Source: Escherichia coli (lineage in GTDB: Bacteria > Pseudomonadota > Gammaproteobacteria > Enterobacterales > Enterobacteriaceae). From it: a DNA stretch of 64,000 bases. Both the position numbers and the translations under genes were made by a program. The notes below the pieces were generated by a model that saw nothing but the letters and a program-made list of their open reading frames with translations, did not search any database and was not told where the DNA came from. The DNA is taken from assembly GCF_013315695.1 (NCBI RefSeq), contig NZ_CP054353.1. One strand, given 5' to 3'. This document shows, one piece after another, positions 3,400 to 32,468 of this stretch (its first letter is position 1; each line of letters begins with the position of its first letter).

Positions 3400-4596
3400 A
3401 TGGCTCAAGTTATTAATGAAATGGATGTTCCGTCCCATTCGTTTGTTTTTCATGGTACAGGTGAGAGATATTTTCTTATTTGTGTGGTGAATGTGTTGTT
3501 AACGATTATAACGCTAGGTATCTATTTACCATGGGCATTAATGAAATGTAGGCGTTATCTCTATGCTAATATGGAAGTTAACGGACAACGATTTTCTTAT
3601 GGAATTACTGGTGGGAATGTTTTTTTTAGTTGTCTTGTTTTTGTTTTTTTCTATTTCGCAATCTTAATGACAGTGTCAGCAGATATGCCGCTTGTTGGCT
3701 GTGTTTTGACTTTGTCACTGTTGGTTTTGCTTATATTTATGGCAGCAAAAGGACTGCGTTATCAGGCCTTGATGACCAGTCTCAACGGCGTAAGATTTAG
3801 TTTTAATTGCTCTATGAAAGGGTTCTGGTGGGTAACCTTTTTCTTGCCGATTTTAATGGCCATTGGGATGGGGACTGTTTTCTTTATCTCGACAAAGATG
3901 CTACATGCCAATAGTTCAAGTAGTGTTATTATATCTGTGGTTCTGATGGCAATAGTTGGTATTGTTTCCATTGGTATTTTTAATGGTACTTTATATAGCC
4001 TGGTAATGAGTTTTCTCTGGAGCAATACCAGTTTCGGTATACATCGTTTCAAGGTGAAATTAGATACTGCGTATTGTATAAAATATGCCATCCTCGCATT
4101 TTTAGCTTTATTACCTTTTCTCGCTGTTGCTGGTTATATTATCTTCGATCAAATATTAAATGCGTATGATAGTTCTGTGTATGCAAATGATGATATTGAG
4201 AATTTACAGCAATTTATGGAAATGCAACGTAAAATGATAATCGCGCAGTTAATCTATTATTTTGGGATTGCTGTTAGCACCAGTTATTTAACGGTGTCGT
4301 TGCGAAATCATTTTATGAGCAACCTGTCACTGAATGATGGGCGTATTCGTTTTCGCTCAACTTTAACATACCACGGTATGCTTTATCGCATGTGTGCGTT
4401 GGTGGTGATATCCGGGATTACGGGCGGTCTGGCTTATCCACTGCTGAAAATATGGATGATTGACTGGCAGGCAAAAAATACGTATTTGCTGGGCGATTTG
4501 GATGACCTTCCTTTAATCAATAAAGAAGAACAACCAGATAAAGGCTTCTTAGCCAGTATTTCACGGGGAATTATGCCTTCTTTACCATTTCTGTAA
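3400..4596 (+). CDS. yjgN: DUF898-type inner membrane protein
   Basis: Multi-pass hydrophobic protein; start chosen at internal ATG (MAQVINEMD) to give 398 aa as in K-12 YjgN. Confidence 0.8.
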   Translation: MAQVINEMDVPSHSFVFHGTGERYFLICVVNVLLTIITLGIYLPWALMKCRRYLYANMEVNGQRFSYGITGGNVFFSCLVFVFFYFAILMTVSADMPLVGCVLTLSLLVLLIFMAAKGLRYQALMTSLNGVRFSFNCSMKGFWWVTFFLPILMAIGMGTVFFISTKMLHANSSSSVIISVVLMAIVGIVSIGIFNGTLYSLVMSFLWSNTSFGIHRFKVKLDTAYCIKYAILAFLALLPFLAVAGYIIFDQILNAYDSSVYANDDIENLQQFMEMQRKMIIAQLIYYFGIAVSTSYLTVSLRNHFMSNLSLNDGRIRFRSTLTYHGMLYRMCALVVISGITGGLAYPLLKIWMIDWQAKNTYLLGDLDDLPLINKEEQPDKGFLASISRGIMPSLPFL

Positions 4597-27126: not shown

Positions 27127-27198
27127 TGAAGTGGCACACTGAATTTGGCCACCTGAACAGAGGTGATATGCTCACCTCAGAACAACACAGGTGCTCCA

Positions 27199-28364
<1,166 letters not shown>

Positions 28365-30109
28365 CCACTTCAAACGGACTGGGAGAACAGGTACAACATG
28401 TGCTGAATGATAATCCCTTCTCCGGTCACCTGTTTATCTTCCGTGGCCGACGGGGTGACACCGTCAAAATTCTTTGGGCTGATGCTGATGGTCTGTGCCT
28501 GTTCACCAAACGCCTGGAGGAAGGCCAGTTTATCTGGCCTGCGGTACGTGACGGCAAGGTATCCATTACCCGCTCGCAACTGGCAATGCTCCTCGATAAG
28601 CTGGACTGGCGTCAGCCAAAAACATCCAGCCGTAACTCACTGACAATGTTGTAAAAAACTCCTGACCGCATTATAAAAACGGTCATGAGTCAGAAATACC
28701 TCATTCGCATCGCAGAGCTGGAAAGGTTGCTCTCTGAGCAGGCTGAAGCCCTCCGTCAGAAAGACCAGCAACTGAGTCTGGTTGAAGAGACGGAAGCCTT
28801 CCTGCGCTCTGCACTGACACGTGCCGAAGAAAAGATCGAAGAAGATGAACGGGAAATAGAACATCTGCGGGCTCAGATAGAAAAACTGCGCCGGATGCTG
28901 TTCGGTACCCGTTCTGAAAAACTGCGTCGTGAAGTTGATCTGGCTGAGGCTCTGCTGAAACAACGTGAACAGGACAGCGATCGTTACAGTGGGCGGGAAG
29001 ACGATCCTCAGGTTCCCCGCCAGTTGCGACAGTCGCGCCATCGTCGTCCGTTACCGGCACACCTTCCCCGTGAAATACACCGCCTGGAGCCAGAAGAAAG
29101 CTGTTGCCCGGAGTGTGGCGGTGAGCTGGATTATCTGGGGGAAGTCAGCGCTGAACAGCTGGAACTGGTGAGCAGTGCCCTGAAAGTGATCCGCACAGAA
29201 CGGGTAAAAAAAGCCTGTACAAAATGTGACTGTATTGTTGAAGCACCGGCGCCGTCCCGCCCGATAGAGCGTGGTATCGCGGGCCCCGGATTACTTGCCC
29301 GCGTGTTAACGGGAAAATACTGCGAACATCTGCCACTGTATCGTCAGAGTGAAATCTTTGCCCGCCAGGGTGTCGAACTGAGCCGGGCCTTACTCTCCAA
29401 CTGGGTTGACGCGTGCTGCCAGTTAATGACACCGGTGAATGATGCCCTGTACCGTTATGTAATGAACACCCGCAAGGTTCACACTGATGACACACCGGTA
29501 AAGGTACTGGCACCGGGTCAGAAAAAGGCGAAAACAGGGCGTATCTGGACGTATGTCCGGGATGATCGCAATGTGGGTTCGTCATCTCCTCCAGCGGTCT
29601 GGTTCGCGTACTCGCCGAACCGGCAGGGGAAACACCCGGAGCAACACCTCCGCCCCTTCCGGGGTATCCTGCAGGCGGATGCGTTCACAGGTTACGACAG
29701 GTTGTTCAGTGCAGAACGTGAAGGTGGTGCACTGACAGAAGTTGCGTGCTGGGCCCATGCCCGGCGAAAAATCCACGATGTATACATCAGCAGCAAAAGT
29801 GCGACGGCAGAAGAAGCCCTGAAGCGAATCAGTGAACTGTACGCCATCGAGGATGAAATACGGGGATTACCGGAGTCAGAGCGTCTTGCCGTCAGGCAGC
29901 AGCGAAGCAAAGTGTTACTGACGTCGCTGCATGAATGGATGGTGGAGAAGAATGGTACGCTGTCGAAAAAATCCAGACTGGGCGAAGCGTTCAGCTATGT
30001 ACTGAATCAGTGGGATGCCCTCTGTTATTACAGTGATGACGGTCTGGCGGAGGCGGATAATAATGCTGCGGAAAGAGCGCTTCGTGCAGTCTGTCTCGGA
30101 AAGAAAAAC

Positions 30110-31560
30110 TCTTATGACCTTTGTCAAATATTAAGCCCAAAAAGACCTACGCAGCTCCGGGAGCTTCGTTATATCGCGGATTAAAGAACCTGAAACAGTC
30201 AGACTGTATCTTGGATTTTACAAACTCTTATTCGGGGATTTTAGCCCCATGACGATTTACGCAGTGAGCTGGCCTCTTTCTATATGCAGGTATTGGCGCA
30301 TTCTGACCTCCTGAATTCTTTTACGAGGATCACTCATTCCGTGTCTGACTGCTTCAGGGTTTAATTTTGCTTCTGCTGACTGAATGATGATTGGGCAGCA
30401 AGTGCAATATCCCACATAAATCCAGTCAACTCACGAGCCACCGCCGTAATGGCTACTTGTGATTTTTTCCCTTTTGCTGTCAGACTTCGGTAACGAGAAC
30501 ACAATCGTTGTTGAGCTTTCCATGCAATATCTTTGGAATATTGTGTTACAGAATCCGGTCGGTAATATATAAGCCATGCACCAACTTTTGCAGGTGTACG
30601 ATAAGACCAGGCGGCTTCGTAAAGCAGACGTCTCAGTTCGCTGTTTCCAACTTTTGTTATTCCTCTGGGACGAATACTGTTTCCACTGGAATATTCACCT
30701 GGCACCAGTCCCAGAAAAGCCATGAGCTGTTTGGGACTGGAAAATCGCGAAAAATCACCCAGTTCAGCAACCAGGGTTATTGCAATTAGCTGACCAACAC
30801 CTTTTAGAGCCTGCAACTGGCAGACCAGATTGCACAGAGACCACTCAGGTAACAGGCGAGATATTTCCTGGTCGAGTTGAAGTATGCGATCTTCAATCTG
30901 CTCCAGACTTTGACAATAGTGTTGAAAAGCAATCTGCTGAGATGGCTGACTAAATGATTGATTAGCTAACCAGGTTCGATGTTTGCCGGTCCAGTGCTTC
31001 CCTGCATAACGTTTGTCTGTTCGCAATAGCATGCTCAGAATTCGCTGTCGGGCAACTCTGCTGTCTCGTTTAGCTGCTGCACGGGCTCTGATTAGATCCC
31101 GCATAGCTTCATGAGTCAGGTCAGGGATCCAGACAGGGGTAAGTTCACCAGCCCGCAGTAACCTGGCAAGAGAAATTGCGTCCCGATGATCATTTTTGAT
31201 TCTGTCTGTCGGTGATTTTGGTATCCGGGAAGGGGCAATAACCTGGCATTTTATATTCATCGCTGTGAGTTGATGATATAGCCCAAAACCACAGGGGCCA
31301 GCCTCATAGCAGGAAAGAATGTTTCCGTAAAGTCCCTGCAATTTCTGAAATAATCGACGTACAGCCTGGGCTTCGTTGTTAATCGTACCATAATAACGAA
31401 CTTCGCCAAGCCGTTCAGGTGCAGCAATAGCAACCGCCAACGTTTCTTTATGTACATCCAGCCCGATGTAAGCTGCAATATTTTCCGAATGCATAATGAC
31501 CTCCTCTGGAATATCCCACCAATGCTATAGTGAGTATATAAAGGTCATACCATCTTTATG
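30110..31560 (-). mobile_element. IS110-family insertion sequence nested in IS66 tnpC
   Basis: Boundaries from the break in the IS66 TnpC reading frame; encodes a DEDD-type transposase; 251-bp non-coding region 3-prime of the transposase. Confidence 0.7.
30361..31494 (-). CDS. IS110-family DEDD transposase/recombinase
   Basis: N-terminal YIGLDVHK RuvC-like motif typical of the IS110 family; 377 aa. Confidence 0.8.
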   Translation of the reverse strand: MHSENIAAYIGLDVHKETLAVAIAAPERLGEVRYYGTINNEAQAVRRLFQKLQGLYGNILSCYEAGPCGFGLYHQLTAMNIKCQVIAPSRIPKSPTDRIKNDHRDAISLARLLRAGELTPVWIPDLTHEAMRDLIRARAAAKRDSRVARQRILSMLLRTDKRYAGKHWTGKHRTWLANQSFSQPSQQIAFQHYCQSLEQIEDRILQLDQEISRLLPEWSLCNLVCQLQALKGVGQLIAITLVAELGDFSRFSSPKQLMAFLGLVPGEYSSGNSIRPRGITKVGNSELRRLLYEAAWSYRTPAKVGAWLIYYRPDSVTQYSKDIAWKAQQRLCSRYRSLTAKGKKSQVAITAVARELTGFMWDIALAAQSSFSQQKQN

Positions 31561-31726
31561 TTCTTTGGCAGCGATCACGGCGGCGAGCGTGGAGCACTGT
31601 TGTACGGGCTGATCGGCACCTGCCGTCTGAACGGTATCGATCCGGAAGCGTATCTGCGCCATATCCTGAGCGTACTGCCGGAATGGCCTTCCAACCGAGT
31701 TGATGAACTGCTGCCATGGAACGTAG

Positions 31727-32468
<742 letters not shown>

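What the first reader, a model, noticed from the sequence alone, without database searches (positions are those of the whole stretch)
30110..31560. IS110-family element nested in an IS66 transposase gene, with a long 3-prime non-coding arm
The IS66 TnpC reading frame is interrupted after ...CLGKKN and resumes at FFGSDHGG about 1.45 kb later. The insert encodes a DEDD-type IS110-family transposase (YIGLDVHK motif). The 251-bp region 3-prime of the transposase (30110-30360) is non-coding, while the 5-prime flank is only about 65 bp. As I recall, IS110-family elements encode structured guide (bridge/seek) RNAs in a non-coding end, and a 3-prime location would fit the IS1111 subgroup. This region is a candidate for such an RNA.
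Basis: partly seen in the sequence, partly recalled or inferred. Interest (0 to 1): 0.6.

Follow-up and report, generated by a model that had tools for sequence, protein, structure and literature searches.

The report
ISEc45 insertion sequence with bridge RNA

Summary
A 1443-bp element (30111-31553, minus strand) flanked by a duplicated 2-bp core (CT on the + strand) splits the ISEc23 tnpC gene after ...CLGKKN. It is 99.4% identical to E. coli copies annotated ISEc45. It encodes an intact 377-aa DEDD/Ser recombinase, has 10-bp subterminal inverted repeats, a 59-nt 5' arm and a 250-nt 3' arm.

The 3' arm holds a structured RNA of about 170 nt. A covariance model built only from 15 distant relatives finds it as the single hit in the 64-kb window (E 1.4e-19). 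Its helices covary. Its two loops carry short segments that match the IS66 target and the element's own ends, and these change with target and ends across about 30 relatives.

Durrant et al. 2024 already list ISEc45 as IS1111-group with a bridge RNA detected in the right end, so the class is known.

Added here:
- exact ends and core
- the guide assignment
- seven of nine relatives with IS66-like guide loops and a readable flank sit at the same IS66 TnpC profile position as the window copy
- this copy's target loop has drifted toward its ISEc23 site

RNA expression, and which strand is transcribed, are inferred, not shown.

The parts
30111..31553 (-). ISEc45-type insertion sequence (IS110 family, IS1111 group), 1443 bp between the two core copies
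   Evidence: Junctions compared with uninterrupted ISEc23; 99.4% identity to annotated ISEc45 copies
30109..30110 (.). Core dinucleotide CT (AG in tnp orientation), copy at the right-end junction
   Evidence: The left flank matches the empty site through 30110 and the right flank matches from 31554, so the overlap is 2 bp. The same AG...AG frame is seen in 22 relatives
31554..31555 (.). Core dinucleotide CT, copy at the left-end junction
30361..31494 (-). tnp: 377-aa DEDD/Ser recombinase. D13, E64, D102, D105 and S270-G271 are all present. Shine-Dalgarno GGAGG lies 5 nt upstream of the ATG
   Evidence: S270 aligns with catalytic S241 of IS621 (PDB 8WT6). Residue positions
31540..31549 (-). Left subterminal inverted repeat TATGACCTTT, 4 nt (ATGG) inside the core
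30113..30122 (-). Right subterminal inverted repeat AAAGGTCATA, 2 nt (AG) inside the core
30189..30358 (-). Predicted bridge/seek RNA, about 170 nt. Closing helix P0 pairs 30343-30358 with 30189-30204. The target-binding arm has P1 (30332-30336 with 30265-30269), P2 (30325-30328 with 30273-30276) and P3 (30310-30313 with 30287-30290). The donor-binding region is centred on hairpin P5 (30245-30248 with 30234-30237)
   Evidence: MFE fold; covariance-model hit at 30193-30337, 79.2 bits; pair counts; P0 in all intact relatives; coordinates checked
30314..30323 (-). Target loop, 5' guide UAAAAGAAUU. Its last 7 nt pair with the tnp-sense strand AGTTTTT (core plus right flank) using two wobble pairs. 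Equivalently it is the same sense as the IS66 coding strand AAAAACT at 30104-30110
30280..30286 (-). Target loop, 3' guide CAUAUAG. It is identical in 6 of 7 positions to left flank plus core CATAAAG (31554-31560, minus strand)
30249..30253 (-). Donor loop, 5' guide (minimal) GUCAU, complementary to ATGAC of the left end (31544-31548). It does not reach the core
   Evidence: This is the weakest of the four assignments
30225..30231 (-). Donor loop, 3' guide AUAAGAG, identical in 7 of 7 positions to right end plus core (30109-30115, minus strand)
30122..30127 (-). TTGACA -35 hexamer in the right end. On a circle junction it lies 17 bp upstream of TATGAC (31544-31549)
   Evidence: Read from the sequence. 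TTGAC is conserved in most relatives' right ends. Function is inferred from the literature
28685..30109 (+). ISEc23 (IS66 family) tnpC, N-terminal 475 codons, ending at NF033517 profile position 346 of 387
31556..31743 (+). ISEc23 tnpC, C-terminal remainder (FMFFGSDHGG...)

Best explanation
This is an intact ISEc45 element: IS110 family, IS1111 group. It inserted into a conserved stretch of the ISEc23 tnpC gene, the codons for G-K-K-N|F-M-F, by RNA-guided recombination. A transcript covering the 3' arm folds into an RNA of about 170 nt closed by a long helix.

One arm of the RNA presents an internal loop whose two sides pair with opposite strands of the target, overlapping at the 2-bp core. 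The second region, around a GGGG/CCCC hairpin, carries a copy of the right end plus core and a short complement of the left end. These recognise the joined ends of the excised circle.

The DEDD/Ser recombinase bound to this RNA would bring circle and target together and exchange strands at the core. This leaves the core on both sides and no other duplication.

If the DNA is read on the strand where the core is CT (opposite to tnp), the layout matches IS621. [quoted passage not shown]

Shown here: the element's anatomy, RNA homology and covariation, and guide/DNA matching with its co-variation. Inferred from other family members: transcription, processing, protein binding, the circular intermediate and the junction promoter.
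For: Identity and anatomy.

Catalytic set: D13, E64, D102, D105 and S270-G271 are present. S270 aligns with S241 of IS621, PDB 8WT6.

Published listing: ISEc45 is recorded as IS1111 group with a bridge RNA in the right end.

RNA homology: model R1 was built from 15 relatives whose transposases are 46-72% identical, none from E. coli. It gives one hit in 64 kb on both strands, at 30193-30337 (-), 79.2 bits, E 1.4e-19. It hits 35 loci, always downstream of tnp and on its strand.

Covariation: 97.0% of cells pair against 82.9% in shuffles. 8 of 11 pairs have compensatory changes. The covariation score is 0.426 against 0.168 (0 of 500 shuffles reach it), and slid registers collapse. Closing helix P0 is present in every intact relative with a different sequence, and the cognate partner ranks first in 11 of 14.

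Guides: the donor 3' guide equals AT + the 3-nt right-end extension + AG. It follows the extension through AAG, CAG, GAG, ATC and ATT. The target guides follow the flanks. In permutation tests the observed sums were 57 vs 14.9, 191 vs 122 and 45 vs 26, with no shuffle reaching the observed value.

Canonical ISEc45 guides AAAAAGAAUU and CACGUAG match one IS66 variant perfectly over 11 + 7 nt (L051).

Within ISEc45, 7 of the window copy's 10 private differences fall in the 41-nt target loop. They include an A-U to G-C compensatory pair in inner P3 and two transitions that bring the 3' guide from 4/7 to 6/7 identity with ISEc23.

Where the target core is AA, the left junction reads AG and the right junction AA (L012, L016, L051). 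This fits IS621 top-strand cleavage 3' of the CT core and that paper's statement that the first core base is the less constrained.
Against: There are no expression data. No sigma-70-like promoter was found inside the arm.

The transcribed strand cannot be decided from structure. Only 6 of 19 homologues fold better in tnp sense. In the modelled helices there are 5 G.U cells against 5 A.C cells. Strand assignment therefore rests on RNA-seq of other IS1111 members. It also rests on 10 elements whose 5' target guide needs an rU.dG wobble at the core.

The MFE z-score of the whole arm is only -2.28.

The donor 5' guide is short (5 nt) and does not reach the core in this copy.

This copy's guides pair imperfectly with its own ISEc23 site. 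The 3' guide has one mismatch, and the 5' guide forms 7 pairs, two of them wobble.

The permutation tests ignore relatedness of the elements, so they are not true probabilities.

Rfam 15 has no matching family.
Confidence: 0.85

Rival explanations
1. The conserved 3' arm acts as DNA, not RNA. It would be a set of recombinase-binding or end-recognition sites, and its conservation and internal repeats of the end sequence reflect protein-DNA contacts.
For: The strand cannot be assigned from folding. The donor 3' 'guide' is literally a second copy of the right-end sequence ATAAGAG, as an internal binding site might be. No internal promoter was found.
Against: Helices keep pairing through compensatory changes on both sides: 8 of 11 pairs, and P0 in 11 of 14 elements. 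This is expected for a folded single strand, not for duplex protein sites. The loop segments track the target flanks, which are outside the element. Several target matches work only with rU.dG or rG.dT wobble. For other IS1111 members the arm-derived RNA co-purifies with the transposase and works in trans.
Confidence: 0.05
2. The arm makes a structured RNA that only regulates the element, for example as a 3' UTR stabiliser, attenuator or antisense partner, and does not guide recombination.
For: IS110-family elements can carry extra regulatory small RNAs, such as Asr9 and Ssr9 of ISPpu9. The arm also contains two further hairpins 3' of P0 whose role is unknown.
Against: A purely regulatory RNA gives no reason for its loops to co-vary with the sequences flanking each insertion and with the element's terminal extensions. 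Nor does it explain why the canonical ISEc45 loops are an 11 + 7 nt perfect match to an IS66 site.
Confidence: 0.05
3. The RNA is a real guide in the family, but this copy is a passive passenger. It was inherited or moved as part of ISEc23, not by its own recent transposition, and may no longer be mobile at this site.
For: The same ISEc23::ISEc45 junctions occur in other strains and on plasmids (L001, L049, L054). This suggests one old insertion spread by ISEc23 or by descent. Canonical guides fit ISEc23 poorly, at 4 of 7 positions in the 3' guide. ISEc23 here is itself truncated by an IS3-family element.
Against: The ORF, catalytic residues, both ends and the RNA are all intact. The same guide variant is also found in a different IS66 remnant next to iha in NCTC86 (L053), so it has moved. 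This rival concerns the history of this copy, not what the arm encodes.
Confidence: 0.3

Closest known systems
ISEc45 (ISfinder entry; NCBI 'IS110-like element ISEc45 family transposase')
   Same: The full-length element is 99.3-99.4% identical. It has the same ends and the same recombinase. Durrant et al. list ISEc45 as IS1111 group with the bridge RNA in the right end.
   Different: The window copy is a variant. It has 10 private differences, 7 of them in the target-binding loop: 5' guide UAAAAGAAUU against AAAAAGAAUU, and 3' guide CAUAUAG against CACGUAG. About 105 E. coli records carry an arm at least 99% identical to this one.
IS621 bridge RNA system (Durrant 2024; Hiraizumi 2024; PDB 8WT6)
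   Same: It shares the DEDD + Ser recombinase, a 2-bp core and two guide loops. Each loop pairs with both strands and overlaps the core. Read with the core as CT, the 5' loop side is same-sense and the 3' side antisense, as in IS621. The first core base is variable and the second fixed, and the core travels with the left arm.
   Different: The RNA lies 3' of tnp instead of 5'. The element's tnp and RNA are oriented oppositely relative to the CT-reading strand. It has long subterminal inverted repeats. The donor-binding nucleotides sit in a multiloop closed by a long helix rather than in a simple internal loop. Protein similarity is only detectable in the C-terminal domain.
IS1111-family seekRNAs of ISEc11, ISPa11, ISKpn4 and ISPst6 (Siddiquee 2024)
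   Same: The non-coding region is downstream of tnp, with subterminal inverted repeats and terminal extensions. In the RNA, the segment pairing with the top strand lies 5' of the one pairing with the bottom strand. A -35 hexamer in the right end could form a circle-junction promoter.
   Different: The transposase is 377 aa, against 330-350 aa quoted for the core IS1111 set. It is only 26-35% identical to IS1111, IS4321 and IS5708 in local BLASTP alignments, none covering more than 241 aa. Its nearest catalogued relative is IS1533, at 30.5% over 334 aa. No experiments exist for this lineage.
[quoted passage not shown]
   Same: It is an RNA-guided insertion sequence whose natural target is a conserved coding motif of another IS family's transposase gene.
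   Different: It belongs to a different subgroup with an upstream RNA, and it targets a different IS family (IS3 rather than IS66).

Membership tests
IS110 family (DEDD/Ser RNA-guided recombinases) | N-terminal RuvC-like DEDD domain plus C-terminal Transposase_20 domain | tested here: met
   Pfam PF01548 (E 3.6e-15) and PF02371 (E 9e-23). NCBIfam NF033542 at 278 bits against a cut-off of 140
IS110 family (DEDD/Ser RNA-guided recombinases) | Catalytic D-E-D-D and the Ser of the G..P....SG motif | tested here: met
   D13, E64, D102, D105 and GLVPGEYSSG with S270-G271 are present. S270 aligns to S241 of IS621
IS110 family (DEDD/Ser RNA-guided recombinases) | Site-specific insertion with a short core repeated at both junctions and no longer target duplication | tested here: met
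   A 2-bp CT overlap was found against the empty ISEc23 site
IS1111 group | Subterminal inverted repeats of 7-17 bp with short terminal extensions | tested here: met
   A 10-bp repeat lies 4 nt from the core on the left and 2 nt on the right. Relatives share the frame AG-5nt-ATG...CAT-3nt-AG
IS1111 group | The longer non-coding end, holding the RNA, lies downstream of tnp | tested here: met
   250 nt 3' against 59 nt 5'; the covariance-model hit lies in the 3' arm
IS1111 group | Transposase related over its full length to IS1111-group proteins | tested here: inconclusive
   The best match among ten representatives typed in from Durrant's table is IS1533 (IS1111 group, 145 bits). Next come IS5708 (76.6 bits), IS650 (IS110 group with a right-end RNA, 72.4), IS1111C (68.6) and IS621 (56.6). 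The margin over IS110-group proteins is small, and the length of 377 aa is outside the 330-350 aa range quoted for the core group. Durrant et al. label it IS1111
Bridge RNA / seekRNA | Conserved structured RNA encoded in the non-coding end | tested here: met
   Leave-one-out covariance model E 1.4e-19; covariation; a compensatory change within ISEc45 itself
Bridge RNA / seekRNA | Loop with two segments pairing with opposite strands of the target and overlapping the core | tested here: met
   Window copy: 7 pairs (two wobble) for the 5' guide and 6 of 7 identity for the 3' guide. Canonical ISEc45 against the L051 site: 11 + 7 perfect. The segments co-vary with flanks across relatives
Bridge RNA / seekRNA | Second region with two segments matching both ends of the element (the donor) and overlapping the core | tested here: inconclusive
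   The 3' segment is met: 7 of 7, and it co-varies with the right-end extension. The 5' segment is only 5 nt in this copy, without core pairing. It is longer in some relatives, for example 10-12 nt in L005
Bridge RNA / seekRNA | The RNA is expressed, binds the recombinase and is required for transposition | not testable with these tools
   No transcript or biochemical data are available. This is known only for other family members
Rfam-curated RNA family | Match to a curated covariance model | tested here: not met
   Nothing was found in 30111-31553 even at E up to 10. Rfam 15 apparently holds no model for this RNA

The most novel reading that the evidence does not exclude
ISEc45 may belong to a lineage of IS1111-type elements, spread across phyla, whose guide RNA is tuned to one conserved coding motif of IS66-family transposase genes, G-(R/K)-K-N|(W/Y/F). 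It would be an insertion sequence that specialises in disrupting another insertion-sequence family. Wobble pairing at the core (rU.dG and rG.dT) would let one guide accept both Asn codons. The natural AG-left/AA-right junctions record on which side of the core the strands cross over. I found no paper in the searchable library describing this target or this lineage's RNA.
Probability: 0.4. Interest if true: 0.45.

Novelty: already known. Interest (0 to 1): 0.3.

Why it matters
For the finding as stated, it matters little. It is a correct reading of a catalogued element of a recently characterised class. It shows that a tool-free reader can recognise an IS1111-type guide-RNA arm from layout alone.

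The by-products have modest value:
- an explicit guide map for ISEc45, which is present in about a quarter of complete E. coli genomes
- natural examples of guide drift and of target-core mismatch outcomes in an IS1111-type system, for which no structure exists
- evidence that a whole lineage homes to IS66 tnpC, which bears on how insertion sequences compete and on choosing compact IS1111-type recombinases for engineering

Tried and rejected
- Rfam 15 at permissive thresholds gave only chance hits outside the element.
- The sigma-70 promoter and terminator scan found no promoter or terminator inside the 3' arm. The only site inside the element is a terminator-like hairpin within tnp, on its strand, at 30758-30775.
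- A first search for exact 6-mers in the window copy alone was ambiguous, because the target is partly palindromic (AAAGAA/TTCTTT). The guides became clear only after relatives were aligned.
- RNAalifold on the plain MAFFT alignment recovered only three helices. P0, P3 and P4 had to be examined per sequence.
- Strand assignment from folding energy (6 of 19 better in sense) and from G.U against A.C counts (5 against 5) was uninformative.
- Small ORFs in the arm were considered and dismissed. The open frames differ between the window copy and canonical copies because of a 1-nt indel.
- The apparent TTT continuation of the donor 3' guide into the right flank (ATAAGAGTTT) is not reproduced in relatives, so I treat it as coincidence.
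- Searches for 'ISEc45' returned only resistance-genome surveys. A search combining IS110, IS66, tnpC and 'target site' returned nothing.
- L015, L033 and L040 have flanks that do not fit their guides or the IS66 profile. They may be rearranged and were not explained.
Full report
**1. What is in the sequence**

ORF listing and direct reading show an IS66-family TnpC frame on the + strand from 28685. It ends its homology at ...CLGKKN (30109) and resumes at 31556 (FMFFGSDHGG...). Between the two parts, on the minus strand, lies a 377-aa ORF (30361-31494).

The host element is ISEc23. An uninterrupted ISEc23 from E. coli 042 reads GGAAAGAAAAACTTTATGTTCTTTGGC. The window's left junction is AAAAACT|CTTATGACC and its right junction is ACCAT|CTTTATGTTC. 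The two flanks therefore overlap by exactly CT, at 30109-30110 and 31554-31555. The insert is 30111-31553, 1443 bp.

**2. Identity**

The insert matches 1467 of 5426 complete E. coli genomes. Full-length hits are 99.3-99.4% identical and annotated 'IS110-like element ISEc45 family transposase'.

The protein passes NCBIfam NF033542, 'IS110 family RNA-guided transposase', at 278 bits against a cut-off of 140. It carries Pfam DEDD_Tnp_IS110 and Transposase_20. D13, E64, D102, D105 and S270-G271 are all present. S270 aligns with the catalytic S241 of IS621, PDB 8WT6. A GGAGG ribosome-binding site precedes the ATG.

Among ten catalogued family proteins the closest is IS1533 (IS1111 group, 30.5% over 334 aa). 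Other IS1111-group proteins come next, and IS621 scores lower. The margin is modest.

**3. Architecture and relatives**

One scan of species-representative genomes returned 39 loci encoding relatives that are 45-72% identical. Plasmid searches added alphaproteobacterial ones.

Aligning on the inverted repeats shows a shared frame in tnp orientation: left flank-AG-5 nt-ATG...subterminal repeat ... repeat...CAT-3 nt-AG-right flank. The arm between the stop codon and the right repeat is 247-488 nt.

In the window the repeats are TATGACCTTT (31540-31549) and AAAGGTCATA (30113-30122). The 3' arm is 250 nt and the 5' arm 59 nt.

These are the features that define the IS1111 group. Durrant et al. 2024, Supplementary Table 5, lists 'ISEc45 | RE | IS1111'. 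The class-level claim is therefore already published. I found no paper giving ISEc45's RNA structure or target.

**4. Is there a conserved RNA in the arm?**

The arm's minimum-energy fold has a 16-bp closing helix (nt 3-18 with 157-172 of the arm) around a multiloop. Its z-score is only -2.28, and Rfam has no match.

The relatives' arms share a recognisable core. I aligned 15 of them, none from E. coli (A1), and built a covariance model with three helices (R1). Searching the whole window on both strands gave a single hit, at 30193-30337 (-), 79.2 bits, E 1.4e-19.

Across all loci the model finds 35 copies, always downstream of tnp on its strand. Many of these were not used to build it.

On that alignment 97.0% of cells pair, against 82.9% in shuffles. 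Eight of 11 pairs show changes on both sides. The covariation score is 0.426 against 0.168, and no shuffle of 500 reaches it. Sliding the register by one column drops pairing to 55-63%. The alignment is fitted to the model, so these figures lean towards the structure.

The long closing helix P0 was assessed separately. Every intact relative has one, with a different sequence. The cognate 3' strand is the best partner for its own 5' strand in 11 of 14 elements.

Within ISEc45 itself, the window copy differs from canonical copies by an A-U to G-C double change in the inner P3 stem.

**5. Guides**

All sequences in this section are in tnp orientation. The table lists loop segments beside junction sequences for about 35 elements.

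- *Donor loop, 3' side.* The segment just after the GGGG/CCCC hairpin is AT + the 3-nt right-end extension + AG. It follows the extension through AAG, CAG, GAG, ATC and ATT. In the window it is AUAAGAG (30225-30231), equal to the right end plus core in 7 of 7 positions.
- *Target loop, 3' side.* The 7-mer ending in AG copies the left flank plus core. Examples are CAGCCAG for ...CAGCC-AG sites, CAGGUAG for ...AGGT-AG, CAGUAAG for ...GTA-AG and GCUCUUAG for ...CTCTT-AG. In the window it is CAUAUAG (30280-30286) against CATAAAG, a 6 of 7 match.
- *Target loop, 5' side.* This segment is antisense to core plus right flank. Examples are UCAAGAAUU for AATTCTTG, CAUCUCUA for TAGAGATG and CAGGCUA for TAGCCTG. 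In the window, AAGAAUU pairs with AGTTTTT through two wobble pairs.
- *Donor loop, 5' side.* This segment is antisense to the left end. It is long in some relatives (CGAACAUACGG in L005) but only GUCAU in the window, without core pairing.

I shuffled which flanks go with which RNA. The observed and shuffled-mean sums were 57 vs 14.9 (target 3' guide), 191 vs 122 (target 5' guide) and 45 vs 26 (donor 3' guide). No shuffle reached the observed value. Related elements share both guide and target, so these are not true probabilities. Even so, the switches between clades are what a programmable guide predicts.

Read on the opposite strand, where the core is CT, the layout is that of IS621: the 5' side is same-sense to left arm plus core and the 3' side is antisense. 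It also fits the observation by Siddiquee et al. that the order of the guide segments is reversed relative to tnp in IS1111 types.

**6. The target**

For relatives from Nitrosomonas, Trabulsiella, Limnoglobus, a Sphingomonadales MAG, a Rhodobacteraceae MAG and an Acidobacteria MAG, and for a second E. coli IS66 variant, the flank translates to IS66 TnpC. In each case the match ends at NF033517 profile position 346 of 387, the same position as in the window.

L017's flank shows the motif by eye but was not scored. L015's flank gave no IS66 match.

In E. coli, ISEc45 sits at this position in at least four different IS66 backgrounds. The canonical ISEc45 guides, AAAAAGAAUU and CACGUAG, are an 11 + 7 nt perfect match to the variant in L051/L052 (...GAACACGT-AG/AA-TTCTTTTTCC). 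They fit ISEc23 poorly.

The window copy differs from canonical copies at 10 positions, and 7 of these fall within the 41-nt target loop (30283-30323). Two transitions turn CACGUAG into CAUAUAG, which is closer to ISEc23's CATAAAG. This could be a recombination patch or point mutations; I cannot tell which. About 105 E. coli records carry an arm at least 99% identical to the window's. The same variant also lies in a different IS66 remnant in NCTC86.

**7. Core behaviour**

Where the target's core position reads AA (L012, L016, L051), the left junction is AG and the right junction is AA.

On the CT-reading strand, the first core base stays with its own left arm. This is as expected if the top strand is cut 3' of the core, as in IS621. 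It also agrees with the IS621 rule that the second core base (T) is fixed and the first is flexible.

The 5' target guide ends in UU and the 3' guide in AG. Both AG and AA cores can therefore be paired using wobble. This is an inference from sequence.

**8. Expression**

No internal promoter was detected. The right end carries a perfect TTGACA (30122-30127). On a circle junction this would lie 17 bp from TATGAC in the left end. TTGAC is conserved in most relatives' right ends. Junction promoters of this kind, and processing of the guide from a longer transcript, are documented for ISEc11, IS621 and others. Here they are inferred.

Folding energies and wobble counts in helices do not tell which strand is the RNA.

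**9. Verdict**

The element is ISEc45, already catalogued and already listed as carrying a right-end bridge RNA, so the finding is of a known kind. What this analysis adds is a guide map, the exact ends and core, the lineage-wide IS66 target, and natural guide drift in this copy. Interest is modest.

Noticed in passing
L009, L010, L012, L013, L016, L038, L051 (flanks of the ISEc45 relatives); window 30109/31556: Seven relatives of ISEc45, from Nitrosomonas, Trabulsiella, Planctomycetota, Sphingomonadales, Rhodobacteraceae, Acidobacteria and E. coli, interrupt IS66-family tnpC genes. All do so at the same profile position (346 of 387 of NF033517) as the window copy. This looks like a lineage specialised on IS66. 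L015, in the same guide group, gave no IS66 match.
   Followed up: partly
L012, L016, L051 (also L053 and L040) junctions: When the target core differs from AG (AA, or AT in L053), the left junction carries the donor-type AG and the right junction the target-type base. This is a consistent asymmetry that records where strands cross over.
   Followed up: partly
window 30283-30323 compared with L001, L047-L049: Seven of the window copy's ten private differences from canonical ISEc45 cluster in the 41-nt target-binding loop. They include a compensatory stem change and two guide changes toward the ISEc23 site. Whether this arose by a patch exchange or by point mutation is undecided.
   Followed up: partly
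window 27163-28654: An IS3-family element (orfA 27163-27498, orfB 27525-28364) abuts a 5'-truncated IS66 tnpB (28358-28654). The ISEc23 copy that hosts ISEc45 is therefore itself cut by another insertion sequence.
   Followed up: partly
window 31846-32468: Just beyond ISEc23 lie a C-terminal fragment of an IS21-family IstB helper ATPase (31846-32139, + strand) and a truncated TetR/AcuR-like regulator (32190-32468, minus strand). This is a graveyard of mobile-element fragments.
   Followed up: no
L022:1700-1800 (downstream of the RNA): The right end of this relative is tandemly duplicated: ...TTGACTGCGGACATCAGAGCG appears twice, about 50 nt apart. This may be a footprint of an aberrant recombination at the core.
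   Followed up: no
L043 and L046, about 3660-3800: In two Novosphingobium relatives the RNA is cut off after the target-binding arm by an insert containing a long perfect palindrome (...GCGCCTTATGTCGAACTCGACATAAGGCGC...).
   Followed up: no
window 30111-30188: Two further hairpins, GAAGCUCCCGGAGCUGC and GUAGGUCUUUUUGGGCUUA, lie between the closing helix of the predicted RNA and the right inverted repeat. Their role is unknown; they could mark a terminator or a processing site.
   Followed up: no
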